Positions 24,674 through 43,198 of a stretch of 64,000 bases of DNA are shown one piece after another. Below the pieces are notes generated by a model, which saw nothing but the letters and a program-made list of their open reading frames with translations, was not told where the DNA came from and did no database searches. The stretch lies in the IMG/VR virus record IMGVR_UViG_3300045999_010033, positions 1-64,000 of that record; one strand, written 5' to 3'. The DNA comes from a virus. Each line of letters starts with the position of its first letter. Positions within the stretch are counted from its first letter, which is position 1. The translations under genes were made by a program, and so were the position numbers.

Positions 24674-24883
24674 TTATATAAAAAGTTTAATTAATAAAAT
24701 AAAGTATATAAAGTTCGTTGGGCCAATAAACCAAAAGAACACATCCCTTCGGTTTTGGCGTTGTTCGGGTGTTTTAGAATCCAACATCCATTCTGCTATT
24801 TCACCAAAGTAAAATACTGAAATTATTGGAATCCACCAAATCCATTTTGTATTGTATAGTTCTTCATACATTTGATTTACCAT
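24674..24883 (-). CDS. WWIP-motif small membrane protein (paralog of 26464..26661)
   Basis: 'KWIWWIPIISVFYFGE' vs 'KWYWWIPIIGLYFIEE'. Confidence 0.5.
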   Translation of the reverse strand: MVNQMYEELYNTKWIWWIPIISVFYFGEIAEWMLDSKTPEQRQNRRDVFFWFIGPTNFIYFILLIKLFI

Positions 24884-25449
24884 TTAATTCGTGTCTTCAC
24901 TTCGGTAATATGTTTACAAGTCTTCGGAGTTTGTTTTGAGAACATATACCCCGGACAACTACATTCCCAATATTCGTCCGCAGTAAGTGTTACCGTATAA
25001 TAGTCCGTGCCATTTGAAGATTTGACTATATATGGTCTATTTTCCGAAACGACGAGTGGTATATTACTCAAATCCATCGTAGATTTATTTAGCTTTACAT
25101 AGTTTGGATAGTCGGTATTTCCTTTTAAGAAATTGATAAACATATTGTATAATCCACAAACTTCAGAATAAAACAGTCCTACCGACTGGACATTACTTTT
25201 ATAAAAGGGTAGATAAGTATCGTGCCATATACCGGAGTGCCCCGCCCCTCTAAGGCACACTCTAATATGAAGTTTTTCATTTTTCCAATCCATTGCACAT
25301 AAAAGCGCATCCACACGTTCATCTTCAGGAAAAATCCAAAATGAATCAGGAGCCGCATTCCGGTCTGCGATTACAATACGAAACCCATTTTGTGTCTTTT
25401 TTGGTTCGGCGTAATCTGCCAACTTTTGAAATCCTATCGGTTTGTTCAT
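24877..25449 (-). CDS. SWIM zinc-finger protein
   Basis: 'CSCPGYMFSKQTPKTCKHITEV' CxC...CxH SWIM signature at C-terminus. Confidence 0.55.
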   Translation of the reverse strand: MNKPIGFQKLADYAEPKKTQNGFRIVIADRNAAPDSFWIFPEDERVDALLCAMDWKNEKLHIRVCLRGAGHSGIWHDTYLPFYKSNVQSVGLFYSEVCGLYNMFINFLKGNTDYPNYVKLNKSTMDLSNIPLVVSENRPYIVKSSNGTDYYTVTLTADEYWECSCPGYMFSKQTPKTCKHITEVKTRIKW

Positions 25450-26119: not shown

Positions 26120-26464
26120 TCATTTACGTTTCTTTTTAGATTTTGCTTCTATAATATGTTTACAATCTCTGCCTCGTCCGAAAGCATGGGCGGGACAGTT
26201 ACAAGTCCAAAAATCATCATCGGATTTCACTTCATAGATTTCACCTTTACTACCAACATAATGCCATTCGCCATTTGGTTTACGTTTCGGTGTTTCTGGT
26301 TTCGGTTGGATAGTTTCTTTAATCCACAATTTTTCCAATTCATTCCAACTATACTGCCGACTAACCTCAATCCACTTTCCATTTGCGATGATGTACCATC
26401 TCCCACTTACGGGGCCCTGAACACAAGTGGGAGGATAAAAACTTTTGAACTTTTCCATAAACAC
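26120..26464 (-). CDS. SWIM zinc-finger protein (second copy)
   Basis: 'CNCPAHAFGRGRDCKHIIEA'. Confidence 0.55.
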   Translation of the reverse strand: MFMEKFKSFYPPTCVQGPVSGRWYIIANGKWIEVSRQYSWNELEKLWIKETIQPKPETPKRKPNGEWHYVGSKGEIYEVKSDDDFWTCNCPAHAFGRGRDCKHIIEAKSKKKRK

Positions 26465-26661
26465 TATTTAGATACTAAAAGAATTATTAGAACCAATCCC
26501 AATACGTGATATGCCATATTGAAATAAGCGATTAACATTCGTTTTACATAAACAGATGTTTCGATGGAATCAAATACCCATCCGGACATTTCCTCAATGA
26601 AGTATAGCCCGATTATGGGAATCCACCAATACCATTTAGTATTTAGTATTTCCGTTTTCAT
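26464..26661 (-). CDS. WWIP-motif small membrane protein
   Basis: Paralog of 24674..24883. Confidence 0.5.
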   Translation of the reverse strand: MKTEILNTKWYWWIPIIGLYFIEEMSGWVFDSIETSVYVKRMLIAYFNMAYHVLGLVLIILLVSK

Positions 26662-26824
26662 ATAATTTATTATTTAATCCTTTTAAGATATTCCTTTTTA
26701 ATATGGATTTGTTTGATTGATTCGGTTTGATTTGCTAATTGTGCCACCTTTGAAAAGGAGATACCCTTCAGTTGAAAGGTATCTCCGTTCATAGTGGTTA
26801 CTACGATATCAAATAGTGTTTTCA

Positions 26825-27073
26825 TTAGTTATGCTTCATTCCCTTCATAACTCCATACCCTTGCCGAGCGGCCAATCTATTGATATTGTCAGCAATGTCT
26901 TTTGGTACGACTTGAATTGTGTTACCGGTTTTGTGATTGGTGACCGGAATACCACCAACTTGTTCAACGGTAGAACAATTAACGCAGGATTTGTAGCCAT
27001 ACTTAACGAGTCGAAGTTTGGGCATCTTACCACCACATTTGATGCACGTAGTCATTTCAAGTTTTACTTTCAT
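26825..27073 (-). CDS. C4 zinc-finger protein (DksA/TraR-like)
   Basis: CIKCGG...17 aa...CVNC. Confidence 0.45.
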   Translation of the reverse strand: MKVKLEMTTCIKCGGKMPKLRLVKYGYKSCVNCSTVEQVGGIPVTNHKTGNTIQVVPKDIADNINRLAARQGYGVMKGMKHN

Positions 27074-27104
27074 ACAAAAAGATTTATAAGTTTTATAAAA
27101 TAAT

Positions 27105-28598
27105 TCACTTCAATTTAGAACGAATCTCATCGAAGGTAATCCGATTGTGGAATGTACCATCTTTGTAGATAGTATTCAACGCACCATGTCGTTCTTCTTC
27201 CCAAGATACTTTATCCTTCAGTTCATAGTTTTTATGATGAAGTTTACCCAATGAATCGGATTCCATTACTTCAACTACCTGCAACAAACCAGTAGCAGAT
27301 TTCTTTGTACCATCATCGGTGATAGGGTCTTTGAAGATTTCTCTACCTTCTTCGTTCACTTCAACATAAGTAGCCTTCATAGCGAAACCGAATGTATCGC
27401 GTGTGTTGTACTGATATGTGAATGAACCCACACCGAACACAATGTTAGTCGAAGCGAATCCCTTACTAGCGAGCCTTTGGCAAATTTCCTCAGCCCTCTC
27501 AAGCGTAATAGAGTCACCATAGATTGCTCCAATGTGAGGGTCTAATACTTTGTAACCCTGCTCATTGATTGTACCGCCAAACACATCCCAAAGCAATTCA
27601 ATCACACCTTTATATGAAGGATGTGTTGCTTGTTCCGCCGAGTACATATCAGGCTTTGTGTTTAAACCACACACAATATCGGTAGGATTACCACTATCAG
27701 GTCTGATTACCAATTTACCATCACGTGCCATAATCTTATCTTTCAGTACAACAACGTGCTCCGTACATACTTTCCACAAGTCCCAAGTATCGGATACAAC
27801 CGAAAGGATACCGGTGGGATATGTGTCCAACAATCTACTGAACGTTCCGATTTCATCATCTTTACTACCTGCACACATTACACTATGTTCGGTTGCATTT
27901 ACACTACCAACAACCATACCTTTTGCTCCATAGAATTTGCGAGCACCGTGAATTACTGGAAGACTATCCGACCCCAAGAACGATGTGGCATGTCCAAGAC
28001 CAGAACTGATTGTTACATCAATACTATCAAGACCACGCATTGAGAAGTCATGTGCCTGCCAATCAACAAACCACGCACGTTCCTTGTCCGTTTTATCCTG
28101 CCACTTCGTCAATACTTTACGATATTGATGTGCTATGGTAGCGGATGTCATAGGCTTCCAAAGCAAGTTAGAAATAATAGTTTCCAAATAGTTCGTAATC
28201 CAATAGAAATCGGGGTGAGTATTACGAATGGTCAGAACCGGCACCTTAATAGGAACGGTAGTACCTTCGGTGATTGCTTTCACTTCAATCGGAAGATAAC
28301 CCAAATCGTGCAACCTTTCAAAGTGCGAAACATCATAGTCAGTACCAAGGTAAAGACTCAGTTCCTCTTTGATTTCAGCGATAACTACATCCTTTGGCTG
28401 ACTGAAAAATTCCTTTTCAAAAGCCTCGTGGATTTCCATCATAACCATTTGCTGTCCAAACGATACGACTTCATCACATCCTTTAGGAGCGTGTTTGTTA
28501 CTACGCGGTGTGAAGTTTGAATATACCATAGTCGTACCTTTGGGATATTGTTGATGGTGTCCTGTCTTGTAACCGTCAGTAAGAAGAAGCGGATTCAT
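27105..28598 (-). CDS. nicotinamide phosphoribosyltransferase family protein (NAMPT/NadV-like; candidate Namat of NARP1)
   Basis: 497 aa; N-terminal 'LLTDGYKTGHHQQYP' matches the NAMPT 'DSYK.THYKQYP' signature. Confidence 0.8.
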   Translation of the reverse strand: MNPLLLTDGYKTGHHQQYPKGTTMVYSNFTPRSNKHAPKGCDEVVSFGQQMVMMEIHEAFEKEFFSQPKDVVIAEIKEELSLYLGTDYDVSHFERLHDLGYLPIEVKAITEGTTVPIKVPVLTIRNTHPDFYWITNYLETIISNLLWKPMTSATIAHQYRKVLTKWQDKTDKERAWFVDWQAHDFSMRGLDSIDVTISSGLGHATSFLGSDSLPVIHGARKFYGAKGMVVGSVNATEHSVMCAGSKDDEIGTFSRLLDTYPTGILSVVSDTWDLWKVCTEHVVVLKDKIMARDGKLVIRPDSGNPTDIVCGLNTKPDMYSAEQATHPSYKGVIELLWDVFGGTINEQGYKVLDPHIGAIYGDSITLERAEEICQRLASKGFASTNIVFGVGSFTYQYNTRDTFGFAMKATYVEVNEEGREIFKDPITDDGTKKSATGLLQVVEVMESDSLGKLHHKNYELKDKVSWEEERHGALNTIYKDGTFHNRITFDEIRSKLK

Positions 28599-28621
28599 AA
28601 TATATGTGTTTATTGTTTGAA

Positions 28622-29524
28622 TTAAATTAAGAAATTGGTAAATACATTGAACTGGTGTGTTATGATTTCATCAGCTTCAATATCTTTGTAAGAGTTTGTT
28701 GTTATAATTTTATTAAAATGTGGAGTAAGTACGTCCAAACCGGCGGAGAAGATACCGTGAGTAACTACCAAATAGATTTGAGCCGTAGGTAATTGTTCAC
28801 GTATTGCTTTAGCCAATTCAATAAAGGTACGTCCTCCATCACAAATATCATCAATGATAACATACTTTAATGGTACATCTGTCTTACTAATCGGTAGATT
28901 CGGTACTTCCGTTTTTATGATTTGCCCCGTCTTTATATCACGGATTTTATTCGCCGTAGCAATTGATTGAACTCCCAATGCTTTAGCTACATCAAATGTT
29001 TTTTTGTATGCGCCGGAATCGGGGCTTATCAAACATAATTCGTCTGGATTAAAGGTTGAGCCTGATATTTTGGATACAGCGAAGTTGATAAATTGATAGT
29101 ATGTATTGGTTGCTTTTTTAAGTCCATTCACACACGCTTCAATTACATCCGAATGTGGATCTAATACCTTAACCCTATCAAAGTCCAAAGAGTTGATAAC
29201 TGGAGAAATAACATCTTTTACATAATTGATTCCACCCTCAACAAATTTTCTATCGGAACGAGCTCCTATAAAGTAAGGAACTGATAAATCAATCTTCATT
29301 GTTTTGTTCAATCCTCTAATTGCTTTCACTCCACAAATAATCAATTCCAAATCGGAAAAGTTATTTAGACGAGATACTATCGTTACATTAGATGTACCAT
29401 GTCGGATTTTATCATGTTCGGAATTGGGAATTTCTAAACTTTGCTGCCCATCGGGGAATTTTGATACCTTATATAAAAGGTTTTCTATTCTATTTGCTGT
29501 GGGATTTGTAAGGTCTAATTTCAT
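28622..29524 (-). CDS. ribose-phosphate pyrophosphokinase family protein (Prs-like; candidate ADP-ribose pyrophosphokinase Adps)
   Basis: 300 aa; 'VIIDDICDGGRTF' PRPP-binding motif; immediately upstream of the NAMPT-like gene. Confidence 0.6.
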   Translation of the reverse strand: MKLDLTNPTANRIENLLYKVSKFPDGQQSLEIPNSEHDKIRHGTSNVTIVSRLNNFSDLELIICGVKAIRGLNKTMKIDLSVPYFIGARSDRKFVEGGINYVKDVISPVINSLDFDRVKVLDPHSDVIEACVNGLKKATNTYYQFINFAVSKISGSTFNPDELCLISPDSGAYKKTFDVAKALGVQSIATANKIRDIKTGQIIKTEVPNLPISKTDVPLKYVIIDDICDGGRTFIELAKAIREQLPTAQIYLVVTHGIFSAGLDVLTPHFNKIITTNSYKDIEADEIITHQFNVFTNFLI

Positions 29525-29529
29525 AACTT

Positions 29530-29733
29530 TTATTTTTGTTTGTTTTTACCAAGTAATCGAACTCCTGTCACTTCATCGGTCCCAACACACGAAACCGGCA
29601 TGCCATCATCGTAGACAGTGCCTATATTGAACTGGACATTATCTATATCGTATTTGTCCGAAAAATGGTCTTTCAATATTTTTCTAACTTCGGTCGCTGT
29701 TAGTTCGATTGTTATATCTTCTCTGATTTTCAT
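29530..29733 (-). CDS. hypothetical protein
   Basis: ORF track. Confidence 0.4.
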   Translation of the reverse strand: MKIREDITIELTATEVRKILKDHFSDKYDIDNVQFNIGTVYDDGMPVSCVGTDEVTGVRLLGKNKQK

Positions 29734-29912
29734 AAACTATCTTTAATTGTATTTATAAGGAATGTAATTAATAACCATATTAAAAGAATAAGGAGTACAC
29801 CAAGAACTGCTATTATAACCATACCTAATACTCTCGGACTAGTTAATCCAAGTATTAAGAGTATTACCATTATAATTGCTGCTAATACGCCGGAGTTTTT
29901 GAGTAGTTTCAT
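29730..29912 (-). CDS. small membrane protein
   Basis: Two TM helices. Confidence 0.4.
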   Translation of the reverse strand: MKLLKNSGVLAAIIMVILLILGLTSPRVLGMVIIAVLGVLLILLIWLLITFLINTIKDSL

Positions 29913-29918
29913 AATTGT

Positions 29919-31145
29919 TTATTTTTCGTGTTTCAATAAAAAAGTATTTGATATTACTTTGAATGAGATAGTTCTATCTAAACTACGAATCACTACACCC
30001 TCCCTATCAAAGTTTGGATTAAGTACCGATTTAGCATCAGCGTAACTCAACAATTCACTCACATCATTCGGTAAGATAAAGTTTGTATCTAAAACCGGCA
30101 CAGTCTCCAACCCAAAGGTATGTTCCATCGTAGCCATAAACATCGGAAGGCCATAATAGGTTTGGTTATCAATATCAAAGATGTTAAAGAACCTTACGGT
30201 CTGACCTTTTATCTTATATGGATTACCCTGAATACCCTCACCGATTAACTCACCCTGAATGGAAAGGTTCTTACCATAACTCCTAAGTTTGTTTTCCAAG
30301 TCAAGCTCTCTAGCCACCTTCCAAAATGTGTTTTCCGTTTTAGGTCGTTCAATGCCATCATCACACATAACCATACCGGGTACGAATGGTTCAGGTTCAC
30401 TCAATTCCAAATTACGGCTACACACTCCAAACACACCATCTTTGTAATAGAACGTTGCTGAACTACCATCAAGCTTTTCCGTTACATAGAACTGATGCTT
30501 TGATTGTAATCTCCAGCCTTCATATTCTTTTGTTAAGTTTTGTACACGCTCTTCATCGGTCTTTCTAATGAATGATGGGAACAACCCTTTCACTTTGCCG
30601 GATAGTTCGGCCGGTATTGGTGGCTCATATTTAGTGATACCCAACCTTTCAGTTACATCTTCACCGTCTACTATGGTGATAAGTCCTTTATATAATGTAC
30701 TATCTAACATAGTAAGTGGTAACAACAAACCTTGTGAAACCTGTCCACGCAATCGAATCGTTTTCAATCTGAATCCCTCACTACCATCTTTCATTTTCTT
30801 ATATGAAGATTTACGAAGAAACTCAAACTCATCACAAATCGGTAAGAACGAATCAACTTCACAATAAACACAAAGGTCACCCGGCTTATACTCGCCCTTT
30901 TTAGTTACTACCTTCCATCCGCCAACAACGGCAACTTCGATAGCATCCGCACCATCAATCGGTTGGATATCGGTAATCGTTCTTATACTTGCTAACTTCC
31001 TATCGGTCATAATTACGGAATTTTGTTCGTTTACAAATCTATCATTTTCGGTGAATCCGGCTGAATCGTATTCCGGCACATCATCTTCACTCATTGCTTG
31101 TAAGGCCATATCTTGCCATTCTTTCATTTCATCTTTCATATCCAT
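29919..31145 (-). CDS. ATP-dependent RNA ligase family protein (KxDG nucleotidyltransferase)
   Basis: Motif I 'TEKLDGSSATFY'; 408 aa. Confidence 0.55.
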   Translation of the reverse strand: MDMKDEMKEWQDMALQAMSEDDVPEYDSAGFTENDRFVNEQNSVIMTDRKLASIRTITDIQPIDGADAIEVAVVGGWKVVTKKGEYKPGDLCVYCEVDSFLPICDEFEFLRKSSYKKMKDGSEGFRLKTIRLRGQVSQGLLLPLTMLDSTLYKGLITIVDGEDVTERLGITKYEPPIPAELSGKVKGLFPSFIRKTDEERVQNLTKEYEGWRLQSKHQFYVTEKLDGSSATFYYKDGVFGVCSRNLELSEPEPFVPGMVMCDDGIERPKTENTFWKVARELDLENKLRSYGKNLSIQGELIGEGIQGNPYKIKGQTVRFFNIFDIDNQTYYGLPMFMATMEHTFGLETVPVLDTNFILPNDVSELLSYADAKSVLNPNFDREGVVIRSLDRTISFKVISNTFLLKHEK

Positions 31146-31330
31146 TATTTTATTTTTGAAGCGTTGTTATCTAATGGATGTATTGTGTTGCAATTTTGAC
31201 AACCTATATAAACAATCTGATATTTTTCATTGGTATCATCATCTACTTCGGTTGAAATTTTGTAATCAAACATATCGTTTTGACCACAATTACCACATAT
31301 GATGTGTAATTTAGAATGTGCCATAATAAT

Positions 31331-31681
31331 TTATTTTCCATAACCAACAAAACCAATTTCAAGTTCTTTTACATAACCTTTTTTCACTAGGTGCGGATAT
31401 ACATCATTCAACCAAAAGTTTTGAACTCTATCCAATTCCTTACTTATTTGGGCATGCATTTCATCCATTCCGAATCCAAATCCGAATCCATATCCAGATA
31501 CCGATTTACCGATTTCTTTCAGAGCCGTTTCATCATCATCGTTATACGCTTTATTGATAGCCTGAAATATATTCTCTTTCATTTCACTTGCTACCTTATC
31601 GTTATGTTCATACATTTTATCATTCCACGGCCTCGTAATCTCAATACCATACTGATTACCCAATACTTTTACCTTACTCAT
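31331..31681 (-). CDS. hypothetical protein
   Basis: ORF track. Confidence 0.45.
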   Translation of the reverse strand: MSKVKVLGNQYGIEITRPWNDKMYEHNDKVASEMKENIFQAINKAYNDDDETALKEIGKSVSGYGFGFGFGMDEMHAQISKELDRVQNFWLNDVYPHLVKKGYVKELEIGFVGYGK

Positions 31682-31692
31682 ATTTTTATATT

Positions 31693-32520
31693 TTATTTTT
31701 CGTAAACACTAAATGTACTATTCATAGGAATGATGAACGGATTGTTAGCCGTATCAATTTTGTTGCGAACCTTTTTGAATTTCAGTCCAACAATAACACC
31801 CGGCTCATCAATGTATCTCATATCGTATTCATCGCCATCAATTACTTTGTAACCCATAAATGTGGAAGGGAGTCGTTTACCTTCAAACACCATAGCTACA
31901 CGCCCTTTCCTTTCACTCAACAATCTTTCACAATCAATCATATTGTATCCGCTGAACGAATATGTGAGGTCATAGTTCGAATATTGATTTAACAAACGAA
32001 AACGTTTAGCCACCTTTGTATAATCATAAAAGGTAACGTTAGAAAACCACTCCAATATATTCTTACCATCCAATTTGAAAGATTGAGGGTCAATATCAGA
32101 TGTACCATTTATCCTTACCGAAAAACGATACCCAAGTGTATTGGCTTCCAAATGTGCTTTGGTGATTTCGGTAACCAACCATTTCATAAAAAACTCACGA
32201 TGTTCAAAGAACAATTTTGTTTTAGCGATACGAGATTTATTGATACGATTTTCTTTCACATCAATACGATTGTGACCAGATTCGGCCAAACACGCATCAC
32301 GACATTCTTTCGTACTCATTGGACACACATTGTATCCACTCACAGACGCGGGAGCAAGATACAGAATATAGGTACGTTCATTGTACTTTAATCCTTTAGC
32401 GATTTTAGATGAAGATGCTACTGAACCAAGATAGGAAAGGGCAGTCAGTTTTTTAGCTTGAGAAATGTTTGTAAATACCATATTCATAATGTGTGATTTT
32501 TTAGACATAGTGGGTCTCAT
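31693..32520 (-). CDS. hypothetical protein (likely true start at second Met, MSKKS)
   Basis: First 4 codons lie inside the conserved promoter repeat; 275 aa. Confidence 0.5.
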   Translation of the reverse strand: MRPTMSKKSHIMNMVFTNISQAKKLTALSYLGSVASSSKIAKGLKYNERTYILYLAPASVSGYNVCPMSTKECRDACLAESGHNRIDVKENRINKSRIAKTKLFFEHREFFMKWLVTEITKAHLEANTLGYRFSVRINGTSDIDPQSFKLDGKNILEWFSNVTFYDYTKVAKRFRLLNQYSNYDLTYSFSGYNMIDCERLLSERKGRVAMVFEGKRLPSTFMGYKVIDGDEYDMRYIDEPGVIVGLKFKKVRNKIDTANNPFIIPMNSTFSVYEK

Positions 32521-33005: not shown

Positions 33006-33503
33006 TTAAACGTTTTGTTCTAGCTCATCAATGTAATTATCCCAACGTTTCAATTCAGCCACTTTTTTTATTCTACAATTTTTCAAATAATTGTTTATGT
33101 ATCCGATAATGTTACCAGCTCCAATCGGATTGGCGGAATGAACATAAATATCTGGGATGGGAATACCAGTATCCATACTATATTTAACCAACCACTTTGC
33201 GCAATCGTATCCGGTCTTTTCAATTATGTTATCGTAATCAATTTTGTAATTATCTTTCACGTTTCTATAATATTCCAAAATAGCGGATTCACCCAAATCG
33301 TGGTCAAAAGAAATCCTTTCAATATTTTCCAAACCATACTGATGTACTGCCATACAAAATTCATCATAACTACGAACAACAATCCAATTTTGATCCATTG
33401 GTGTTCTCATATCATCAAGATATAACCAAAATGTTTTTTTCATATAACTGTTTTTATTTTTACATATGAAACTCCAACTCCGCAGTATCAAAGTTGTAGT
33501 CAA
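33006..33503 (-). CDS. hypothetical protein
   Basis: ORF track; 3' end overlaps next gene. Confidence 0.45.
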   Translation of the reverse strand: MTTTLILRSWSFICKNKNSYMKKTFWLYLDDMRTPMDQNWIVVRSYDEFCMAVHQYGLENIERISFDHDLGESAILEYYRNVKDNYKIDYDNIIEKTGYDCAKWLVKYSMDTGIPIPDIYVHSANPIGAGNIIGYINNYLKNCRIKKVAELKRWDNYIDELEQNV

Positions 33504-34245
33504 AATTTATCGGAGGATTAACACATTCGTATCTGATATTAAGATTACTTGAATTGAACGTTTGGCAATCGTACCAATCTTTCAGTCCGATTACTTTGTG
33601 CCCCATGCCCTCATGAATATGTCCACAAAAATGTAAATGGGGTTTCACTTCACGCACTCTATGATAAAGATCGGCGCATCCAACATTTTCATTCGTGTTC
33701 AATGTTCGGTCGTTGTATCCATACATCGGAGTATGTGTTATGAGTATGTGAGTATCCATAGGAATCAAATTCCAATGTTCATTCATATCATATCCTCTAT
33801 CCGAATTAAATCCCCATCCACTTCCGAAGCTTGGTGAGTATGGAGAGCCCCATATGTTTATTCCTTCAATACAAACTGAACTATTTTCTAAATAGTGTAC
33901 ACCATTTTTCAGATTACCGAGTAATGTTTTTAACCAATGCGGCTTATCATGTTGAGCAAGTTTAACCCATTCAGTATTGTATCCATTGAATATGTGTCTA
34001 TCAATCCATTCCGACTTAACACGAAACTTTCTTTCACTATCGAACACAATGTCGTGATTACCGGCTATGAATACTTTGTATTTGTATGGTTGGTCGGATA
34101 ACCAACCGATGAAATCTTCTACTTCATCTTTTCTACCGATACTAGTGAAGTCGCCGGAATGAATAAGTATATCGCCACCGGGCAACGTCAACTCACGATG
34201 ATATGTGTGAGTATCGGATATTGCTGTTATGCGAAACTTTTTCAT
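33460..34245 (-). CDS. calcineurin-like metallophosphoesterase
   Basis: 'ISDTHTYH', 'GDFTS', 'GNHD' motifs. Confidence 0.6.
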   Translation of the reverse strand: MKKFRITAISDTHTYHRELTLPGGDILIHSGDFTSIGRKDEVEDFIGWLSDQPYKYKVFIAGNHDIVFDSERKFRVKSEWIDRHIFNGYNTEWVKLAQHDKPHWLKTLLGNLKNGVHYLENSSVCIEGINIWGSPYSPSFGSGWGFNSDRGYDMNEHWNLIPMDTHILITHTPMYGYNDRTLNTNENVGCADLYHRVREVKPHLHFCGHIHEGMGHKVIGLKDWYDCQTFNSSNLNIRYECVNPPINFDYNFDTAELEFHM

Positions 34246-34371: not shown

Positions 34372-35667
34372 TTACCAAGTAATAACCGTATCATCGGCCT
34401 GCTCTTCGGTAAAGAGAGCCTCTTCTTTTTGTTCAGCCTCTTCCGTCTTGATGTACTTCTGAATGAGCTGTTTCATAAACACACGCTCACTATCGAGTCC
34501 ACCATCGTTACTGAAGTATGGAAGGATTGCGATTTCAGCCGCCTCCATAAGAGAGAAGCCATCGTAAATCAAACCAGCTGCCTCCACATTCACACGCGAA
34601 GAAACGATAGTCGATACTTTACTCATATCGGTCTTAATCATTTCACGAGTGGTGCTAGCGATTTCAGCGAGAGCGTTCAGAGAATACTCATCGGCTTCAG
34701 GGAATTTGAACTTCAAAAGAGCAAGTTCGTTTTCCTTATCCAACAGGTCCATCTCAATCGTAACGAAACGGTCCATAATGGCACGGTCCATAATACGAGT
34801 CGAGGTGTATTCGTTACCGATGTTAGCGGTAGCGATGAAGGTAACACCATTAGCAACTTTGATAACCGGTGAACCTTCTGCCTCATCAAGACGAAGATAA
34901 CGCTGACCGGAATCAAGAACCGTCATAAGGATGTTCCACGCTTCGGGGTGAGCACGGCTAATCTCGTCAAGCAGGATGATTGCGTTCGGAGTGCTGATAG
35001 CCTTCACAAAGGCGGATTCGCTGAAGAACGTTCCATTCTCTTTGTTGAAGTGCGTATTACCTACAAGTGTTGCGCGTGGGTCCTGCGTAGCACCAAGGTT
35101 GAAATAAAAATCGGGACGTTTCAGAGAACGAACCAATGATTGAGCTGCAAGTGTCTTACCACAACCGGTAGGTCCGACCATCATAATGTTCTTACCACGA
35201 ACGGCAGAACGAATAAGATACTTCCATTTCAATTCGGTAATGAAAAGACCGGCGGGTTTAAGTTCCTTACCGGCTTCATGGATGAACTGCTTCAACTGCT
35301 CATGCGTTTCAAACGCCTCACTCACGGAGTTAACTTCGTTTTCCTGAATAGAAACTGCGGCACGTTTGAACTCATCCATATCAACAAGTTTGTAAGCAAT
35401 CTTGCCACTCGCTGTAACGTACCCACGAAGTGCCTTGCCTTCATCATGTGCTTGCTTCATTTTGGCTTTGGAAATACCGGGCACTTTAGCGGCAGGTTTA
35501 CCATTGGTATTCATCAACGCAAACGATTCTCCGAACTCAACGACCTGATAGAAATCATTCGTGTACTCAATCGATTTTTTAGCAGTTACACGCTTAGTGG
35601 TTGAACGCTTAACACTCTTTGCTGCAGTTTTACGAGATGCAGTGCTACGATTTTTTCTGATTGCCAT
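34372..35667 (-). CDS. CobS-like AAA+ ATPase (MoxR family) with basic N-terminal tail
   Basis: Walker A 'GPTGCGKT', Walker B 'ILLDEISRA'; adjacent to vWA protein. Confidence 0.6.
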   Translation of the reverse strand: MAIRKNRSTASRKTAAKSVKRSTTKRVTAKKSIEYTNDFYQVVEFGESFALMNTNGKPAAKVPGISKAKMKQAHDEGKALRGYVTASGKIAYKLVDMDEFKRAAVSIQENEVNSVSEAFETHEQLKQFIHEAGKELKPAGLFITELKWKYLIRSAVRGKNIMMVGPTGCGKTLAAQSLVRSLKRPDFYFNLGATQDPRATLVGNTHFNKENGTFFSESAFVKAISTPNAIILLDEISRAHPEAWNILMTVLDSGQRYLRLDEAEGSPVIKVANGVTFIATANIGNEYTSTRIMDRAIMDRFVTIEMDLLDKENELALLKFKFPEADEYSLNALAEIASTTREMIKTDMSKVSTIVSSRVNVEAAGLIYDGFSLMEAAEIAILPYFSNDGGLDSERVFMKQLIQKYIKTEEAEQKEEALFTEEQADDTVITW

Positions 35668-35709
35668 AAAATAACTGTTTATTGGTTGGTGATTATAATT
35701 TTATTTATA

Positions 35710-37863
35710 TTATTTTTTAAGAAACATTTCATTCATTGTCTTTGCTACTTCAAACATATTTTCAACGTTCACAAATTTAGCACCATCGCTGTAGGAACGT
35801 TTGAATATATCCCAATCTTCACTTGATTCAAATCGAGATGAGCGAATATCAGTGATGAAGTAGGATAGTACTTGAATACCCATTTCCCCCATACGCTTTA
35901 CTTGCTCGCGAGTGTGTACTGCCGCAGTATTACCTCCATAGTTCAGTTGGTTTTCACCATTGGAAATACTAAAGCAAGGTTGTCCATCGGAGAAATTCAG
36001 AAAATAACTATCCATATCATTCGATTGTGGAATAAGATACTTTTGAATCGCCTCAAAACAAAGTCCTTCCGGCGTAGTTCCATGTGGACGAAGAATTGAC
36101 ATGTACTTACAAAGCTTTTTCAAGCTATCGTAACGGCTATTGTATACCATACATACCCACGGCAATTCGGGGCTACCCGATGTAGTACGAATGGATATTT
36201 GTACATCAATGTTTCTAGCCATAATACATGCTTTGGCAATGGCGACAACTGCGGTGACGGTACGACGCATTTTTTCTCCCTGCATTGAGCCGGAGTAGTC
36301 AATTGATATGTGTAAGTTCACTTTTTTGTATTGGTCAATATGATGATTGAAAAATACACTCTCATTATCATACCCCAATGATGCAATCATACGTTTATCA
36401 ATCCTACCACTTTTAAGGCGACTGAATATAGTCTCACGGCTTTCGGCACGAACTTGTAGTTTCTTACCGAGTAATGTACCGAGTTGAATACCACGTTGAA
36501 CTTCTGCTTCATACTTTTTGTGAATCGCACCATCATACCCACGTGTTGAACATGGGAAATCTGAAGATTCAATCATATTATCGGTAAGACGTTTCACTAC
36601 GATACAATCTACACCTTTACCAACAATACGACCATCTTCGGTCAACTTCATACCAACTTTGGTCAGTTCGGTATCCGATTCTTCGATGTTCTCAAGACTT
36701 TTCAGTTCGGTCTTGCTTACATATTTTTTCTTAATTTTCCCATTCAGAAATTCTTTTTGTTTTTGAATCTTCTTTTTGAGTTGTTCAAGTGCTTTGGGGC
36801 TCAGACGAACTTGCTTACCTTTGGTATCACCATCGGATTCAACTACATCATATCCATCCAAATCATCAATAGTTTCACCATCACCACCTTCACCATCACC
36901 TTCACCATCTTCATCTTCTCCTTTTACTTTTTGACCATCTGCTGGTTTTGTATATTTCAACATTTCTGCAGTAACATCAATGGCCAAGCTCAAAGAATCG
37001 GCGGATGATTTGAGTCTACTGATGTTTTTAAGGTCAAGCAGTTGTGCAATCGTGCGAAGACCTTTCAGTTTACTCAAACTCGTTTTCTCATTGAGAAGGT
37101 TTACGATGCGGAACAAATACGAATCAATCGTTTCGTCGGTGAACTCATCGGAATCGATGCCTTTCGTAACAATTTTATCGTTGAAATAATGTTCATACAT
37201 AGATACATAGTAATCACGATACCCCGGCGCAGTTTTGTAAATCCAACTATCAATACGTCGGTCTTCAATCCAATTACTAAGATTCATAATGAATTGATAC
37301 AATTCCTCCGTCAGTTTAGCACGGGTACGAATCTTACCATTCGGATGGAACATCGCGTATTTTTGTTTGGAATACGCTCCACCGTCAAATCTAGGATTTG
37401 ATTGAAACTTGGTCACATTATCTGCCTCACCTTTGTGATCGAGTACCGAATACGCCATTTTGCTATCCGAAAATTCTCTCAACATTTTGAAATCAGAAAG
37501 AACGATATGTGAACCTTCGTGCAGTGCCAAACCCACCGATACATCGAAGTTATCATCAACATCGGCAGAAAGAATAACCTGCTGGCCATCGGTTTTGCTA
37601 TCCGATTTGGTAGCGAACGTTACTGGGATTTTCTTTCCGGTTACAATCTGAACAAAGTTTGCGATTGCTCTACGAACCGAAGCGAGTTTGTAAAGGTTAG
37701 CAGATTTTTTCATAATCTGAACTTCATCCTTTTTGTACCCCCAATCGGTGTACCGGTCATAATAGTCAAATGACCTTTCATAATCATCATACCAATAAGA
37801 TGAAGCATAAGATTTACTCCACTTATCGGTTGCCTTTTGTTTCAGGCGCGTGTAATATCCCAT
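35710..37863 (-). CDS. CobT-like von Willebrand factor A domain protein
   Basis: 717 aa; MIDAS motif 'DYSGSM' in C-terminal third; acidic linker. Confidence 0.6.
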   Translation of the reverse strand: MGYYTRLKQKATDKWSKSYASSYWYDDYERSFDYYDRYTDWGYKKDEVQIMKKSANLYKLASVRRAIANFVQIVTGKKIPVTFATKSDSKTDGQQVILSADVDDNFDVSVGLALHEGSHIVLSDFKMLREFSDSKMAYSVLDHKGEADNVTKFQSNPRFDGGAYSKQKYAMFHPNGKIRTRAKLTEELYQFIMNLSNWIEDRRIDSWIYKTAPGYRDYYVSMYEHYFNDKIVTKGIDSDEFTDETIDSYLFRIVNLLNEKTSLSKLKGLRTIAQLLDLKNISRLKSSADSLSLAIDVTAEMLKYTKPADGQKVKGEDEDGEGDGEGGDGETIDDLDGYDVVESDGDTKGKQVRLSPKALEQLKKKIQKQKEFLNGKIKKKYVSKTELKSLENIEESDTELTKVGMKLTEDGRIVGKGVDCIVVKRLTDNMIESSDFPCSTRGYDGAIHKKYEAEVQRGIQLGTLLGKKLQVRAESRETIFSRLKSGRIDKRMIASLGYDNESVFFNHHIDQYKKVNLHISIDYSGSMQGEKMRRTVTAVVAIAKACIMARNIDVQISIRTTSGSPELPWVCMVYNSRYDSLKKLCKYMSILRPHGTTPEGLCFEAIQKYLIPQSNDMDSYFLNFSDGQPCFSISNGENQLNYGGNTAAVHTREQVKRMGEMGIQVLSYFITDIRSSRFESSEDWDIFKRSYSDGAKFVNVENMFEVAKTMNEMFLKK

Positions 37864-38025: not shown

Positions 38026-38214
38026 TTATAGTGTGAAGTCCTCGTCGGAATCCACACCTTTTACCTTCATAGTTTTTTGAGGACGATTTCCAATCACTGT
38101 AATTTTTGTTGTTGGTGTAGAATTTGTTTTGTTACGCGTGTTGATGATATCTTTCAATTCAAGAATTTCTTTTTTGATTTCATCTAACAATTCTAAAACT
38201 CTTTGTTCGTTCAT
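38026..38214 (-). CDS. hypothetical protein
   Basis: ORF track. Confidence 0.4.
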   Translation of the reverse strand: MNEQRVLELLDEIKKEILELKDIINTRNKTNSTPTTKITVIGNRPQKTMKVKGVDSDEDFTL

Positions 38215-38729
38215 TTTGTATCGTTTAATTCGTTTAAGATGGAAATGATAAATTCGTAACCTTTGTTCACTTCATCTGCCCAATCATCTTTAATATCATT
38301 CCGAATGATTTTAGCCAAATGTCTTACATTACTACTATCTCCAAAATCGTACATACGTCCAGATCCGATTACTTTGCTCTTCATCATCTGCCCTCCCATC
38401 AATATCGCCATATAGTTTAAGTATATGTGTGGTTGCGCAGATTTGTAGTCCAAGCCACGTAGATAATCACAATACAATCTTGCGTTCGGCCCCAGTGTAG
38501 TGATATCAATAACACCAAGTTCTGTCAAATCATCCAATATCAAATCCGCTCTGAATAAATCAGTACGTGGTAGTCCGAATTTAGACTCGATTGTATCAAA
38601 TATATTGTATTGTACCGTCAGATATCGACCATACTCTTCGTGAGTCAATTCACCTCGCATTAACCTTTGATTGAATGGAACGGATTCTGCCTCTTTATGT
38701 TTGGCCGTAGTTGCTTCTCTTAAATTCAT
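38211..38729 (-). CDS. heme-oxygenase-like protein
   Basis: 'LREATTAKHKEAESVPF' N-terminal region and 'YLNYMAILMGGQMMKSK' resemble HO-1 proximal helix and GG distal-helix motifs. Confidence 0.5.
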   Translation of the reverse strand: MNLREATTAKHKEAESVPFNQRLMRGELTHEEYGRYLTVQYNIFDTIESKFGLPRTDLFRADLILDDLTELGVIDITTLGPNARLYCDYLRGLDYKSAQPHIYLNYMAILMGGQMMKSKVIGSGRMYDFGDSSNVRHLAKIIRNDIKDDWADEVNKGYEFIISILNELNDTK

Positions 38730-39815: not shown

Positions 39816-40160
39816 TTATATTTTTATTAAATCAAAAACTCTATCAATGACATCTTTTGATTCTTTCAATCCTAATCCGGTCGCATCTTTCAATTCTTTA
39901 ACCGCTTGTAGCTTATGGCCAGATTTAGCATACGACATAATGGTGGTTATGGTAGAACGACTGATAACATCGTACCCCACAAACGAATGAAAATCAAATG
40001 CGGATTTCAATATAGCATCATCACTATTCGGTAGATTATCTTTTGTATCTATCAAAGTTTTCAAAATCCAAATGATTGCCGAATTATGCCCAATCTCCTT
40101 ATCGTTTGTAGGATGGGTGTATAGTGCATTAATCAAAGTTTCTTTTGTTATTTGCGCCAT
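39816..40160 (-). CDS. hypothetical protein
   Basis: ORF track. Confidence 0.45.
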   Translation of the reverse strand: MAQITKETLINALYTHPTNDKEIGHNSAIIWILKTLIDTKDNLPNSDDAILKSAFDFHSFVGYDVISRSTITTIMSYAKSGHKLQAVKELKDATGLGLKESKDVIDRVFDLIKI

Positions 40161-40765: not shown

Positions 40766-41064
40766 TGTTTTTCTATTTCAATTTTTACTTTTTGCCAAGC
40801 TAATAAAGATCCTGCAATAAGACCTTTAGCATGGGGGTGAAAATCTCCTGCTATTTCAAGTGATTCCTTCAAATCGTTTAATATCTCATCCACCGCTATT
40901 AATGCACACTCCTTAGCGTATTTGTTCTTTGGTACAGAATATAATTCCATAAGTTCAAGACTACCATTGAACTCCTCTCCCATTGACATTTTTTCAACCA
41001 GCTCTTTCGCTTTTTCTTTTGGTGTCATAATTTGTTTATTTTTACTCGTATGAATTTCTATCAA
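40762..41064 (-). CDS. hypothetical protein
   Basis: ORF track. Confidence 0.4.
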   Translation of the reverse strand: MIEIHTSKNKQIMTPKEKAKELVEKMSMGEEFNGSLELMELYSVPKNKYAKECALIAVDEILNDLKESLEIAGDFHPHAKGLIAGSLLAWQKVKIEIEKQ

Positions 41065-42769: not shown

Positions 42770-42828
42770 ACAACACGTTTTTACATTGTTACAAAGTTTT
42801 AAATTTTACATAATACAAATACTAATAG

Positions 42829-42910
42829 TACCCCGAATCGGACTCGAACCGATACGCCTTTCGGCACCGCATCCTAAGTGCGGCGTGACTGCCAATTCCA
42901 CCACCAGGGC
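42829..42910 (-). tRNA. tRNA-Leu(TAG)
   Basis: Manual fold: AC stem CCGCA/TGCGG, loop CTTAGGA, long V-arm, T-arm ATCGG-TTCGAGT-CCGAT. Confidence 0.7.
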
Positions 42911-43006
42911 AATTAAGCGGAGAGTGATGGTAACGATCCATCTTGAGTTTTACCCCAGCCTCGGTTTAGCAAACCGGCCCCTTACCTTTCGGGCAACTCT
43001 CCATTG

Positions 43007-43087
43007 TACCTCGAATCGGACTCGAACCGATACGTCTTTCGACACTTGATTTTGAGTCAAGCATGTCTACCATTCCATCACCAAGGC
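43007..43087 (-). tRNA. tRNA-Leu(CAA)
   Basis: AC stem CTTGA/TCAAG, loop CTCAAAA, long V-arm. Confidence 0.7.
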
Positions 43088-43198
43088 GAATCCTGCTCTT
43101 TTATCTACAACTTAATGTAGTCGAACATCCAACACTATAACATACGTTTTATAGTTGCTACCATTGGAGGCAGGCAGAATTGAATCTATGTTCACTGC

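What the first reader, a model, noticed from the sequence alone, without database searches (positions are those of the whole stretch)
27105..29524. PRPP-synthetase-like + NAMPT-like gene pair resembling the phage NAD+ reconstitution pathway NARP1 (Adps + Namat)
The two adjacent minus-strand genes encode a Prs-family enzyme (PRPP-binding motif VIIDDICDGG) and a full-length NAMPT-family enzyme (DGYKTGHHQQYP signature). No NMNAT/NatV-like gene sits nearby. In the described NARP1 system, a Prs homolog (ADP-ribose pyrophosphokinase) and a NAMPT homolog (nicotinamide ADPR transferase) together rebuild NAD+ from ADP-ribose plus nicotinamide. This counters NAD+-depleting defences such as Thoeris, DSR and SIR2-type systems. 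Sequence alone cannot distinguish Prs from Adps or NAMPT from Namat. The adjacency in a phage is the tell-tale arrangement.
Basis: partly seen in the sequence, partly recalled or inferred. Interest (0 to 1): 0.8.

Follow-up and report, generated by a model that had tools for sequence, protein, structure and literature searches.

The report
Phage NAD+ rebuilding gene pair (NARP1)
Two adjacent genes in an uncultured large phage carry the published sequence signatures of the known NARP1 enzymes Adps and Namat, which rebuild NAD+ from the fragments left by bacterial NAD+-destroying defences; it is a clean new example of a known system, not a new one.

Summary
Two intact minus-strand ORFs, 23 nt apart, lie at exactly the stated coordinates: a 300-aa Prs-family protein (28622-29524), followed by a 497-aa Nampt-family protein (27105-28598).

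- **Nampt-like protein:** it carries the Namat adenine-clamp motif GSFTYQYNTRD, identical to crystallised SPbetaL1 Namat. It scores 513 bits to that structure against 226 to human NAMPT. NARP2-type phage Nampts have GGGLLQ..RD at this site.
- **Prs-like protein:** it has the Adps-type PP loop (DDICDGGRTF), the catalytic lysine (K193) and the ADPR-adenine contacts (F23, R89, F94). Its C-terminus is short. It scores below the Prs family cut-off, as validated Adps enzymes do, and groups with them (100% bootstrap) apart from five cellular Prs.
- **Other pathway components:** Pfam found no Nmnat, Nudix, Macro, RyR or NADAR domain in any of 132 ORFs. No PnuC or NadR family appeared either.

Enzyme activity and the anti-defence role are inferred, not shown. 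About 157 kb of the 221-kb genome could not be read. Verdict: a new member of a known kind (NARP1 occurs in about 4% of phages), so interest is low to moderate. A GOLLD RNA, a tmRNA and a tRNA array were noticed nearby.

The parts
28622..29524 (-). adps: ADP-ribose pyrophosphokinase (ADPR-PP synthetase), a Prs-fold protein of 300 aa. Key residues are F23, R89 and F94 (ADPR adenine contacts), H124, D169, K193 (catalytic lysine), D225-D226, PP loop C228-T233 and lid F234.
   Evidence: ORF. TIGR01251 scores 84.9 bits, below the cut-off of 113; validated Adps score 82-106 and E. coli Prs scores 423. An NJ tree places all 14 phage Adps-like sequences, including 4 validated ones, apart from 5 cellular Prs with 100% bootstrap. 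Residue mapping to the ICP1 Adps structure paper is, using PMC13586617.
27105..28598 (-). namat: nicotinamide ADP-ribose transferase, a Nampt-fold protein of 497 aa. The catalytic core is D8, Y10, F185, R188, D211, H238, R299 and D301. The selectivity clamp is the SCH motif GSFTYQYNTRD (residues 391-401) plus the SCL residues K35-H36.
   Evidence: ORF. The best PDB matches are 9w5x/9w5w at 513 bits, and the aligned stretch of that chain is 100% identical to SPbetaL1 gp191. Human NAMPT scores 226 bits and Xanthomonas Nampt about 200. The motif and contact residues are aligned. The motif definition is in PMC12774641.
28599..28621 (-). A 23-nt A/T-rich spacer between adps and namat, with no terminator and no obvious Shine-Dalgarno sequence. 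The two genes are probably co-transcribed.
   Evidence: Sequence. The consensus scan found no minus-strand terminator anywhere in 26400-31800 and fewer promoter-like sites than in shuffles (11 against 19.8). Co-transcription is an inference.

Best explanation
The two genes are a minimal two-gene NARP1 module of an uncultured large phage (about 221 kb). When a host NADase effector (SIR2, TIR, SEFIR and similar) cleaves NAD+ into ADP-ribose and nicotinamide, the upstream enzyme (Adps) transfers the beta-gamma pyrophosphate of ATP onto the 1'' hydroxyl of ADP-ribose, giving ADPR-PP. The downstream enzyme (Namat) then replaces that pyrophosphate with nicotinamide and regenerates NAD+ directly, without NMN and without an Nmnat. 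This keeps NAD+ available for phage replication and blunts NAD+-depletion defences. What is shown here: the gene arrangement, the family and subfamily placement, and conservation of every published catalytic and specificity residue except one that also varies among validated Adps. What is inferred from characterised homologues: the two reactions and the anti-defence role.
For: (1) Arrangement. adps lies directly upstream of namat on the same strand with a 23-nt gap, as in Bas63, SPbetaL1, FADO and Grayson. Osterman et al. found a Namat next to 97% of Adps-clade genes.

(2) Namat overall similarity. The best solved structure is SPbetaL1 Namat at 513 bits, against 226 for human NAMPT and about 200 for Xanthomonas Nampt. 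Identity is 42-55% to NARP1-linked Namats, including validated SPbetaL1, FADO, DyoEdafos and Gary. It is 29-32% to NARP2-type Nampts (VH7D, which is KVP40-like, and Klebsiella VAC13). Across 2045 phage records the hits are clearly two-tiered.

(3) Namat motif. The diagnostic SCH motif GSX-phi-X-phi-X-phi-TRD (PMC12774641) is present as GSFTYQYNTRD, identical to the crystallised enzyme. NARP2 Nampts have GGGLLQQLDRD or GGGLLQEVTRD. The SCL position equivalent to R40 is K35 followed by H36, the Lys-plus-next-residue arrangement described for Bas63 and also seen in Gary (FNKH). All NAM, NMN and AMP contact residues and the catalytic His are conserved.

(4) Adps residues. The residues that contact ADPR and ATP in ICP1 Adps (F18, R87, F92, H121, D161, K185, D212, D213, C215, D216, S220, F221) correspond to F23, R89, F94, H124, D169, K193, D225, D226, C228, D229, T233 and F234. 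The PP loop DDICDGGRTF is of the Adps type. The five cellular Prs have DD[MI]I[DS]T[GA]GT[LIM]. There are 64 residues after the lid against 84 in E. coli Prs, consistent with loss of the alpha11-alpha12 module.

(5) Adps family scores and tree. TIGR01251 scores 84.9 bits, below the cut-off of 113 and inside the range of validated Adps (81.7-106). E. coli Prs scores 423. The NJ tree groups it with validated Adps at 100% bootstrap.

(6) Absence of other pathway components. No Nmnat, Nudix, Macro, RyR or NADAR domain occurs in 132 ORFs of the window, and no PnuC or NadR family appeared in the same scans.

(7) Conservation. A relative whose Namat is 76% identical and whose Adps is 56% identical keeps the two genes together.
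Against: There is no biochemical or genetic evidence for these particular proteins. The Adps is divergent: 27-35% identical to validated Adps, and pairwise BLAST alone does not separate it from E. coli Prs (64.7 bits against 55-115 bits to validated Adps). PHROG 619 is also not discriminating, because E. coli Prs scores 193 bits on it. The ICP1 lid residue F223 is E236 here, although it also varies in validated SPbetaL1, FADO and DyoEdafos Adps. The SCL loop is two residues longer than in SPbetaL1. The tree is a small NJ tree with only five cellular Prs, four of them partial sequences taken from PDB alignments. Namat enzymes keep Nampt activity on PRPP in vitro, so some NMN production cannot be excluded. 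About 157 kb of the genome was not available, so an Nmnat elsewhere cannot be ruled out. The source contig was not found in the searchable collections.
Confidence: 0.88

Rival explanations
1. This is conventional salvage of the NARP2 type. The Prs-like enzyme makes PRPP, the Nampt-like enzyme makes NMN from nicotinamide plus PRPP, and an Nmnat encoded elsewhere in the unread 157 kb, or the host's NadR/NadD, completes NAD+ synthesis.
For: Both proteins belong to the Prs and Nampt superfamilies. Namat homologues can still make NMN from PRPP in vitro. Only 64 kb of about 221 kb could be checked for an Nmnat.
Against: The Nampt-like protein has the adenine clamp that NARP2 Nampts lack, and it is only 29-32% identical to them. 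The Prs-like protein fails all Prs family cut-offs. It also has the remodelled Adps PP loop and sits in the Adps clade. NARP2 as defined is Nampt plus Nmnat and has no Prs homologue. No Nmnat was found in the window. [quoted passage not shown]
Confidence: 0.04
2. The enzymes carry out NARP1 chemistry, but their main role is housekeeping for the phage rather than counter-defence. They would recycle ADP-ribose or nicotinamide released by the phage's own NAD+-consuming reactions, for example ADP-ribosylation or the RNA-repair enzymes clustered around them.
For: The pair sits inside a set of RNA-repair genes: a PHA02142-type RNA ligase, cREC_REC, metallophosphoesterases, Rnl1, a PNK-like kinase and HAD_SAK_2. 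The same neighbours flank NARP1 in a relative. Some bacteria carry NARP1 outside mobile elements, which suggests it can have non-defence roles.
Against: No NAD+-consuming enzyme was found in the window: no Tpt1/KptA, no ART, and no NAD-dependent ligase (the phage DNA ligase is of the ATP-dependent type). Every NARP1 tested so far acts as an anti-defence system. Clustering with RNA repair is equally well explained by an anti-defence or early-gene island.
Confidence: 0.07
3. The genes are decayed or inactive remnants with no current function.
For: None, beyond the lack of experimental data.
Against: Both ORFs are full length, and every catalytic and substrate-contact residue that could be tested is conserved. 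The identical locus was recovered in an independent sequencing run (Logan SRR35487087). Homologues at 54-93% identity are abundant.
Confidence: 0.01

Closest known systems
NARP1 (Adps + Namat) of Bacillus phage SPbetaL1, Escherichia phage Bas63, Bacillus phage FADO and Vibrio phage ICP1 (Osterman et al. 2024, bioRxiv 10.1101/2024.02.11.579819; PMC12774641; PMC13586617)
   Same: It is a two-gene module in the same order and on the same strand. The Namat clamp motif GSFTYQYNTRD is identical to SPbetaL1. The Namat catalytic core is conserved. The Adps PP loop, lid F, catalytic Lys and ADPR-adenine contacts are conserved, and the C-terminal PRPS module is missing.
   Different: The Adps is only 27-35% identical to validated enzymes. 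It belongs to a separate, mostly metagenomic sub-clade whose closest cultured member is Leptolyngbya phage Lbo-JY46 (43% identity). It has an Arg at the PP-loop position where ICP1 has Ala219, and E236 in place of lid residue F223. The SCL loop is two residues longer than in SPbetaL1, with Lys-His instead of Arg. The host and phage lineage are uncultured. Nothing has been tested experimentally.
NARP1-AP (Adps + Macro-domain phosphatase Adpp + Namat) of Vibrio phage Gary (bioRxiv 10.64898/2026.01.28.702374)
   Same: The Adps and Namat core is the same. The Namat SCL is 'NKH', as in Gary. Gary is the validated Adps with the highest pairwise identity to the window protein (35%).
   Different: No Macro-domain gene lies within or near the pair, or anywhere in the 64-kb window. 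A relative (L015) does carry a Poa1p-like Macro gene between adps and namat. The window version is therefore predicted not to handle ADPR-1''-phosphate produced by aRES systems.
NARP2 (Nampt + Nmnat) of Vibrio phage KVP40
   Same: It uses a Nampt-fold enzyme and has the same end product, NAD+.
   Different: NARP2 Nampts lack the aromatic clamp (GGGLLQ..RD), are only about 30% identical to the window protein, are not paired with a Prs homologue, and need an Nmnat. None of this matches the window.
Cellular PRPP synthetase (Prs/PRPS, classes I and III) and cellular Nampt
   Same: The folds are the same. The catalytic Lys, His and Asp-Asp residues (Prs) and the D/Y/F/R/D/H/R core (Nampt) are conserved.
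   Different: The Prs family models score far below their cut-offs, the PP loop is remodelled, and the C-terminal regulatory and filament module is absent. The Nampt-fold protein has gained an adenine-binding clamp.

Membership tests
NARP1 | A Prs-family gene and a Nampt-family gene lie next to each other on the same strand (within 10 genes in Osterman et al.) | tested here: met
   The two ORFs are 23 nt apart on the minus strand, with the Prs-like gene upstream.
NARP1 / Namat | Selectivity-clamp helix motif GS-X-phi1-X-phi2-X-phi3-TRD with aromatic X residues (PMC12774641) | tested here: met
   GSFTYQYNTRD at residues 391-401, identical to SPbetaL1 Namat. NARP2 Nampts show GGGLLQQLDRD or GGGLLQEVTRD.
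NARP1 / Namat | Selectivity-clamp loop (beta1-beta2) with Arg, Lys or Tyr at the stacking position, or stacking by the following residue | tested here: met
   K35 aligns with R40 of SPbetaL1 and is followed by H36. Validated Gary Namat has the same 'NKH'. The stacking geometry itself was not modelled.
NARP1 / Namat | Nampt-like catalytic core (SPbetaL1 D13, Y15, F189, R192, D215, catalytic His, R306, D308) | tested here: met
   D8, Y10, F185, R188, D211, H238, R299 and D301 are all conserved.
NARP1 / Namat | Groups with Adps-associated Namats rather than Nmnat-associated Nampts | tested here: met
   513 bits to the Namat structure against 226 to human NAMPT. 368-516 bits to NARP1 Namats against 173-193 to NARP2 Nampts. 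Hits across phages are bimodal. This rests on similarity scores; no formal tree was built for this protein.
NARP1 / Adps | Member of the Adps clade, separate from cellular Prs | tested here: met
   In the NJ tree (247 columns, 200 bootstraps) the 14 phage sequences, including validated SPbetaL1, FADO, Gary and DyoEdafos Adps, split from 5 cellular Prs with 100% support. The TIGR01251 score of 84.9 lies in the Adps range of 82-106, against 423 for E. coli Prs. The outgroup sample is small.
NARP1 / Adps | Remodelled PP loop and lid for the ATP donor (ICP1 C215-S220, F221), catalytic beta-hairpin Lys185, and ADPR-adenine contacts F18, R87 and F92 (PMC13586617) | tested here: met
   C228-D229-G230-G231-R232-T233-F234, K193, F23, R89 and F94. 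The second lid residue F223 is E236 here, but it is also not conserved in validated SPbetaL1, FADO and DyoEdafos Adps.
NARP1 / Adps | Loss of the C-terminal alpha11-alpha12 module of PRPS | tested here: met
   There are 64 residues after the PP-loop lid against 84 in E. coli Prs, within the Adps range of 44-70. This was judged from the alignment only, not from a structure.
NARP1 | Enzymology: ADPR + ATP gives ADPR-PP, then ADPR-PP + nicotinamide gives NAD+, with ADPR-PP preferred over PRPP | not testable with these tools
   This needs purified proteins and LC-MS.
NARP1 | Rescues the phage from NAD+-depleting defences (SIR2-HerA, DSR1/2, type I Thoeris, SEFIR) | not testable with these tools
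   This needs infection or co-expression assays.
NARP2 | An Nmnat (NatV-like) is encoded in the same genome, and the Nampt lacks the adenine clamp | tested here: not met
   No CTP_transf_like or NUDIX protein occurs among the 132 ORFs of the window, and the clamp is present. The remaining 157 kb or so of the genome could not be read.
NARP1-AP | A Macro-domain ADPR-1''-phosphate phosphatase (Adpp) lies within two genes of the NARP1 pair | tested here: not met
   The neighbours are ORFs of 51, 82, 67 and 60 aa with no Pfam domain. There is no Macro domain anywhere in the window. There is no homologue of the Macro protein of relative L015.
NARP3 | A PnuC-like transporter plus a NadR-like bifunctional enzyme (PMC13464706) | tested here: not met
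   No such Pfam family appeared in any ORF of the window.
RyDEP-assisted NARP1 | A RyR-domain glycosidase gene lies next to the NARP1 genes | tested here: not met
   No RyR domain appeared in the Pfam scans. Very divergent homologues could have been missed.
Canonical Prs (ribose-phosphate diphosphokinase) | Passes the curated Prs family cut-offs and has the DD[MI]I[DS]T[GA]GT PP loop and the C-terminal module | tested here: not met
   All 11 NCBIfam Prs models score below their cut-offs; the best is TIGR01251 at 84.9 against 113. Pfam Pribosyl_synth scores 22 against 27. The PP loop is of the Adps type.

The most novel reading that the evidence does not exclude
In this phage lineage NARP1 may not be a free-standing module. 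It may belong to a conserved gene set together with RNA-repair enzymes: a PHA02142-type RNA ligase, a cREC 'cyclic-phosphate processing' receiver protein, a metallophosphoesterase and a PNK-like kinase. In a relative that set also includes a Poa1p-like Macro phosphatase and a nucleoside-deoxyribosyltransferase-like protein. The same homologues flank NARP1 in the window (spread over about 20 kb) and in a 171-kb relative (packed into about 6 kb). RNA-repair genes also lie near the NARP genes in several of the cultured phages I looked at (Gary, DyoEdafos, Grayson, FADO). The novel reading is a functional coupling. One form would be recycling of ADP-ribose derivatives produced during NAD+-dependent RNA-end processing. 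Another would be a co-regulated dual counter-measure against tRNA-cleaving and NAD+-depleting abortive-infection systems. The alternative is mere co-location in an early-gene region.
Probability: 0.1. Interest if true: 0.55.

Novelty: new member of a known kind. Interest (0 to 1): 0.25.

Why it matters
It adds a confidently assigned NARP1 module from an uncultured phage of about 221 kb whose few detectable relatives are freshwater cyanophages. This extends the known reach of NAD+ reconstitution as a counter-defence. It also predicts that the phage's hosts use SIR2, TIR or SEFIR-type NAD+ depletion. The case shows that the 2026 structure-derived signatures (the Namat GSXxXxXxTRD clamp and the Adps DD-I-C-D-G-G-x-T-F PP loop with lid) are enough to re-annotate 'ribose-phosphate pyrophosphokinase / nicotinate phosphoribosyltransferase' pairs in metagenomic phages. 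The Adps belongs to a large and divergent metagenomic sub-clade: 7331 database proteins had E no greater than 0.001, many at 54-58% identity on contigs of 160-240 kb. That sub-clade would be a useful additional target for biochemistry. The finding does not change what is known about the pathway.

Tried and rejected
- **Near-identical DNA search.** Megablast of the 2.4-kb locus against 50,697 phage records found nothing. No close cultured relative exists.
- **Finding the source contig.** I searched for an exact 38-mer so that I could read the rest of the genome for an Nmnat. It gave 0 hits in IMG/VR viral contigs and 0 in JGI metagenome contigs. The look-up of encoding contigs returned only an 11.9-kb Logan contig that lies wholly inside the window region. 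The whole-genome Nmnat check therefore remains open.
- **Pairwise BLAST to separate Adps from Prs.** This was rejected as uninformative: E. coli Prs scores 64.7 bits, which falls between validated FADO (55.5) and SPbetaL1 (75.1) Adps.
- **PHROG 619 as an Adps marker.** Rejected, because E. coli Prs scores 193 bits on it against 219 for the window protein.
- **The 'K-x-R-D-x-x-T-G' beta-hairpin motif as Adps-specific.** Rejected, because the archaeal class III Prs of Sulfolobus has it too.
- **Neighbouring gene in phage VH7D.** I checked the 409-aa gene next to the VH7D Nampt as a possible NatV. It has no Pfam domain, so I had no NatV reference sequence and relied on Pfam profiles instead.
- **Promoter and terminator scan.** It gave no evidence for a dedicated promoter or terminator.
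- **Structure prediction and fold search.** I considered these and did not run them. A crystal-structure homologue at 50% identity with an identical motif already answers the Namat question. No Adps chain was found in the PDB sequence copy to compare against.
Full report
**1. Observation**

The ORF listing shows two intact minus-strand ORFs at exactly the reported coordinates. One is 28622..29524 (300 aa) and the other is 27105..28598 (497 aa). Both start with ATG and are separated by a 23-nt A/T-rich spacer.

The 497-aa protein matches several family models strongly:
- Pfam NAPRTase (E 2e-40) and NAMPT_N (E 2.7e-9)
- NCBIfam PRK09198, 536 bits against a cut-off of 405
- PHROG 448, E 1e-191

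The 300-aa protein matches PHROG 619 (E 1.4e-64). It reaches only sub-threshold scores on Pfam Pribosyl_synth and Pribosyltran and on all eleven NCBIfam Prs models. The best of these is TIGR01251 at 84.9 bits against a cut-off of 113.

**2. Context**

Essentially all genes in the window run on the minus strand. The window carries:
- 24-26 tRNA genes
- a tmRNA
- a full-length GOLLD RNA
- RNA ligases, an ATP-dependent DNA ligase, thymidylate synthase, ClpP and a heme oxygenase

A protein 100% identical to the 300-aa ORF is recorded on a 221,095-bp JGI contig. Relatives at 54-58% identity sit on contigs of 160-243 kb. The same locus was assembled independently from run SRR35487087.

There is no near-identical DNA in 50,697 phage records. 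The few detectable relatives of window proteins are freshwater cyanophages and one 484-kb uncultured phage. Leptolyngbya phage Lbo-JY46 has an Adps at 43% identity, and Microcystis phage Mel-JY01 matches the 717-aa protein. This is therefore an uncultured large phage, possibly a cyanophage. The host assignment is an inference.

**3. Is the Nampt-like protein a Namat or a Nampt?**

A 2026 structural study of SPbetaL1 Namat (PMC12774641) shows otherwise. Specificity for ADPR-PP comes from an adenine 'selectivity clamp' with two parts. One is a helix motif, GS-X-phi-X-phi-X-phi-TRD, with aromatic residues at the X positions. The other is a variable beta1-beta2 loop that supplies an Arg, or a Lys or Tyr followed by the stacking residue.

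The window protein reads GSFTYQYNTRD at residues 391-401, identical to the crystallised enzyme. NARP2-type Nampts from Vibrio phage VH7D (KVP40-like) and Klebsiella phage VAC13 read GGGLLQQLDRD and GGGLLQEVTRD. The loop position equivalent to R40 is K35 followed by H36. This is the same 'NKH' as in Vibrio phage Gary, whose NARP1-AP operon is validated.

All nicotinamide, NMN and AMP contact residues and the catalytic histidine are conserved: D8, Y10, F185, R188, D211, A235, H238, R299, D301, G361, D362, G391, S392, F393, Y397, T399, R400 and D401.

Overall similarity agrees with the motif evidence:

| Comparison | Score |
|---|---|
| PDB 9w5x/9w5w (its aligned stretch is 100% identical to SPbetaL1 gp191) | 513 bits |
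| Human NAMPT | 226 bits |
| Xanthomonas Nampt | about 200 bits |
| NARP1-linked Namats | 42-55% identity |
| NARP2 Nampts | 29-32% identity |

A spread listing over 2045 phage records shows two clear tiers.

**4. Is the Prs-like protein an Adps or a Prs?**

Pairwise BLAST does not decide this. E. coli Prs scores 64.7 bits, which lies between validated FADO (55.5) and SPbetaL1 (75.1) Adps. PHROG 619 does not discriminate either, because E. coli Prs scores 193 bits on it. Three other tests do discriminate.

(a) *Calibration on the cellular Prs model TIGR01251*:

| Protein | TIGR01251 bits |
|---|---|
| E. coli Prs | 423 |
| SPbetaL1 Adps (validated) | 106 |
| Gary Adps (validated) | 99.9 |
| FADO Adps (validated) | 96.5 |
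| Window protein | 84.9 |
| DyoEdafos Adps (validated) | 81.7 |

(b) *Neighbour-joining tree.* The tree used 247 trimmed columns and 200 bootstraps. It contained 14 phage Adps-like proteins and five cellular Prs (E. coli, B. subtilis, M. jannaschii, S. solfataricus, T. volcanium). All phage proteins, including the window protein and the four validated Adps, fall on one side of a split with 100% support.

(c) *Structural determinants.* The 2026 structures of Vibrio phage ICP1 Adps (PMC13586617) define the determinants, and the window protein has them:
- ADPR-adenine contacts F18, R87 and F92 correspond to F23, R89 and F94.
- H121 and D161 correspond to H124 and D169.
- The catalytic beta-hairpin K185 corresponds to K193.
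- D212 and D213 correspond to D225 and D226.
- The remodelled PP loop and lid C215-F221 correspond to C228-D-G-G-R-T-F234.

In the alignment every phage Adps has DD[IL][CS][DS][GFY][GA]x[TS]F, whereas all five cellular Prs have DD[MI]I[DS]T[GA]GT[LIM]. The window protein is of the Adps type. Its C-terminus is short, with 64 residues after the lid against 84 in E. coli Prs. That is consistent with loss of the alpha11-alpha12 module, which the authors call a signature of the family. The one departure is lid residue F223, which is E236 here. That position also varies in validated SPbetaL1, FADO and DyoEdafos Adps.

**5. Other pathways**

NARP2 needs an Nmnat. NARP1-AP needs a Macro phosphatase next to the pair. 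RyDEP-assisted NARP1 needs a RyR-domain protein. NARP3 is PnuC plus NadR.

I scanned all 132 minus-strand ORFs of at least 45 aa against Pfam. Every ORF of 140 aa or more was scanned individually, and the rest were scanned as a set. No CTP_transf_like, NUDIX, Macro, RyR, NADAR, PnuC or NadR family appeared. The immediate neighbours are small ORFs of 51, 82, 67 and 60 aa with no domain.

The window version is therefore the minimal two-gene NARP1. The remaining 157 kb or so of the genome could not be retrieved, so an Nmnat elsewhere cannot be formally excluded. Osterman et al. found no phage that carries both pathways.

**6. Mechanism**

The mechanism is inferred from characterised homologues. 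Host NADase effectors cleave NAD+ to ADPR and nicotinamide. Adps uses ATP to pyrophosphorylate the 1'' position of ADPR, giving ADPR-PP. Namat then exchanges the pyrophosphate for nicotinamide and regenerates NAD+ without passing through NMN.

No minus-strand terminator occurs between 31.8 and 26.4 kb. Promoter-like matches are fewer than in shuffled sequence. The pair is therefore probably co-transcribed within a long leftward unit, which is also an inference.

**7. Comparison and novelty**

NARP1 was found in 859 of about 20,000 phage genomes (4.3%), and 97% of Adps-clade genes sit beside a Namat. My own tblastn searches found Adps-like genes in 1485 of 50,697 phage records and Namat/Nampt-like genes in 2045. 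This is a new member of a known kind.

What is modestly new:
- The lineage is an uncultured phage of about 221 kb with distant cyanophage affinities.
- The Adps belongs to a divergent sub-clade that is abundant in metagenomes.
- NARP1 is repeatedly associated with RNA-repair genes.

On the last point, a relative (L015; Namat 76% and Adps 56% identical) packs the following genes into about 6 kb: metallophosphoesterase, PNK-like kinase, Adps, Macro (Poa1p-like; PDB 6lfu, E 9e-6), a nucleoside-deoxyribosyltransferase-like protein, Namat, cREC and an RNA ligase. Four of these neighbours have clear homologues (52-61% identity) elsewhere in the window. RNA-repair genes also lie close to the NARP genes in Gary, DyoEdafos, Grayson and FADO. 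I did not test whether this association is statistically significant. It forms the basis of the 'novel case'.

**8. Verdict**

- Confidence that the pair is a functional NARP1 module is about 0.88.
- Interest is about 0.25, because the system is already well described and common.

Noticed in passing
window 55991-56405 (-): A full-length GOLLD RNA (Rfam RF02032, model positions 1-416 of 416, 296.6 bits against a gathering score of 150, E 8e-84) sits inside the tRNA array, directly next to a tRNA-Gly gene. The small ORF at 56343-56489 that overlaps it is probably spurious.
   Followed up: no
window 57659-57994 (-): A phage-encoded tmRNA was found by both ARAGORN (tag peptide GNTYANAEYAVAA*) and Rfam RF00023 (68.2 bits against a gathering score of 47). 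It is immediately downstream of a tRNA-Met gene.
   Followed up: partly
window 42828-57657 (-) and 12283-12376 (-): There is a tRNA array of 24-26 genes covering most amino acids, all on the minus strand. Rfam finds two that ARAGORN missed (50657-50727 and 55629-55700). There is also an isolated 93-nt tRNA-like gene at 12283-12376 with an undetermined anticodon.
   Followed up: no
window 29919-31145, 33006-34245, 44527-45995, 47450-48112, 53359-53880 (all -): An RNA-repair gene set surrounds NARP1: a PHA02142-OB plus RNA_ligase protein (408 aa), a cREC_REC 'cyclic-phosphate processing' receiver protein, two metallophosphoesterases, a T4 Rnl1-type RNA ligase followed by an AAA_33 (PNK-like) kinase, and a HAD_SAK_2 'Swiss Army Knife RNA repair' domain protein. 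Clear homologues (52-61% identity) of one metallophosphoesterase, the kinase and the cREC protein flank NARP1 in relative L015.
   Followed up: partly
locus L015 6881-7844 (ENA KRAE22-1 scaffold_53, 171 kb): In a relative, two genes are inserted between adps and namat. One is a 156-aa Macro protein like ADP-ribose-1''-phosphate phosphatase (PDB 2fg1 E 5e-8, 6lfu E 9e-6), which makes that locus a probable NARP1-AP. The other is a 163-aa Nuc_deoxyri_tr2-family protein of unknown role in this context. Neither has a homologue in the window.
   Followed up: partly
locus L013 6001-8730 (ENA k141_524149): Another relative's Adps-like gene (57% identical) has no Namat within 6 kb on either side. A NADAR-domain gene lies five genes downstream, and Thg1 and Fapy-glycosylase genes lie beyond that.
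   Followed up: no
window 38211-38729 (-): A heme-oxygenase-like gene (Pfam E 8e-10) is present. The only phage hits for several window proteins are cyanophages (Leptolyngbya phage Lbo-JY46, Microcystis phage Mel-JY01). The leaders upstream of adps and namat are A-rich and lack a Shine-Dalgarno sequence. Together these hint at a cyanobacterial host, or another host that makes little use of Shine-Dalgarno sequences.
   Followed up: partly
window 39816-40160 (-): A 114-aa ORF has a C-terminus (…KLQAVKELKDATGLGLKESKDVIDRV…) that resembles the C-terminal domain of ribosomal protein L7/L12. The Pfam Ribosomal_L12 hit (E 2.9e-6) came from the set scan, and I located the ORF by motif search.
   Followed up: partly
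window 34372-37863 (-): A MoxR/CbbQ-type AAA+ ATPase (431 aa) follows a 717-aa protein with no Pfam domain. The only phage homologues of the 717-aa protein are in a 484-kb uncultured phage (LR756508) and in Microcystis phage Mel-JY01.
   Followed up: partly
window 24877-25449 and 26120-26464 (-): Two small proteins just downstream of NARP1 end in SWIM-type zinc-finger motifs (CxCxnCxH). Pfam SWIM reaches only E 0.006 for the second. Their function is unknown.
   Followed up: no
window 58133-63983 (-): Other cargo includes a Zeta-toxin/AAA_33-like kinase (58133-58873), a response-regulator receiver-domain protein (60551-61408), a ClpP-like protease (62170-62739) and a thymidylate synthase (63096-63983). 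An ATP-dependent (not NAD-dependent) DNA ligase lies at 41042-42154.
   Followed up: no
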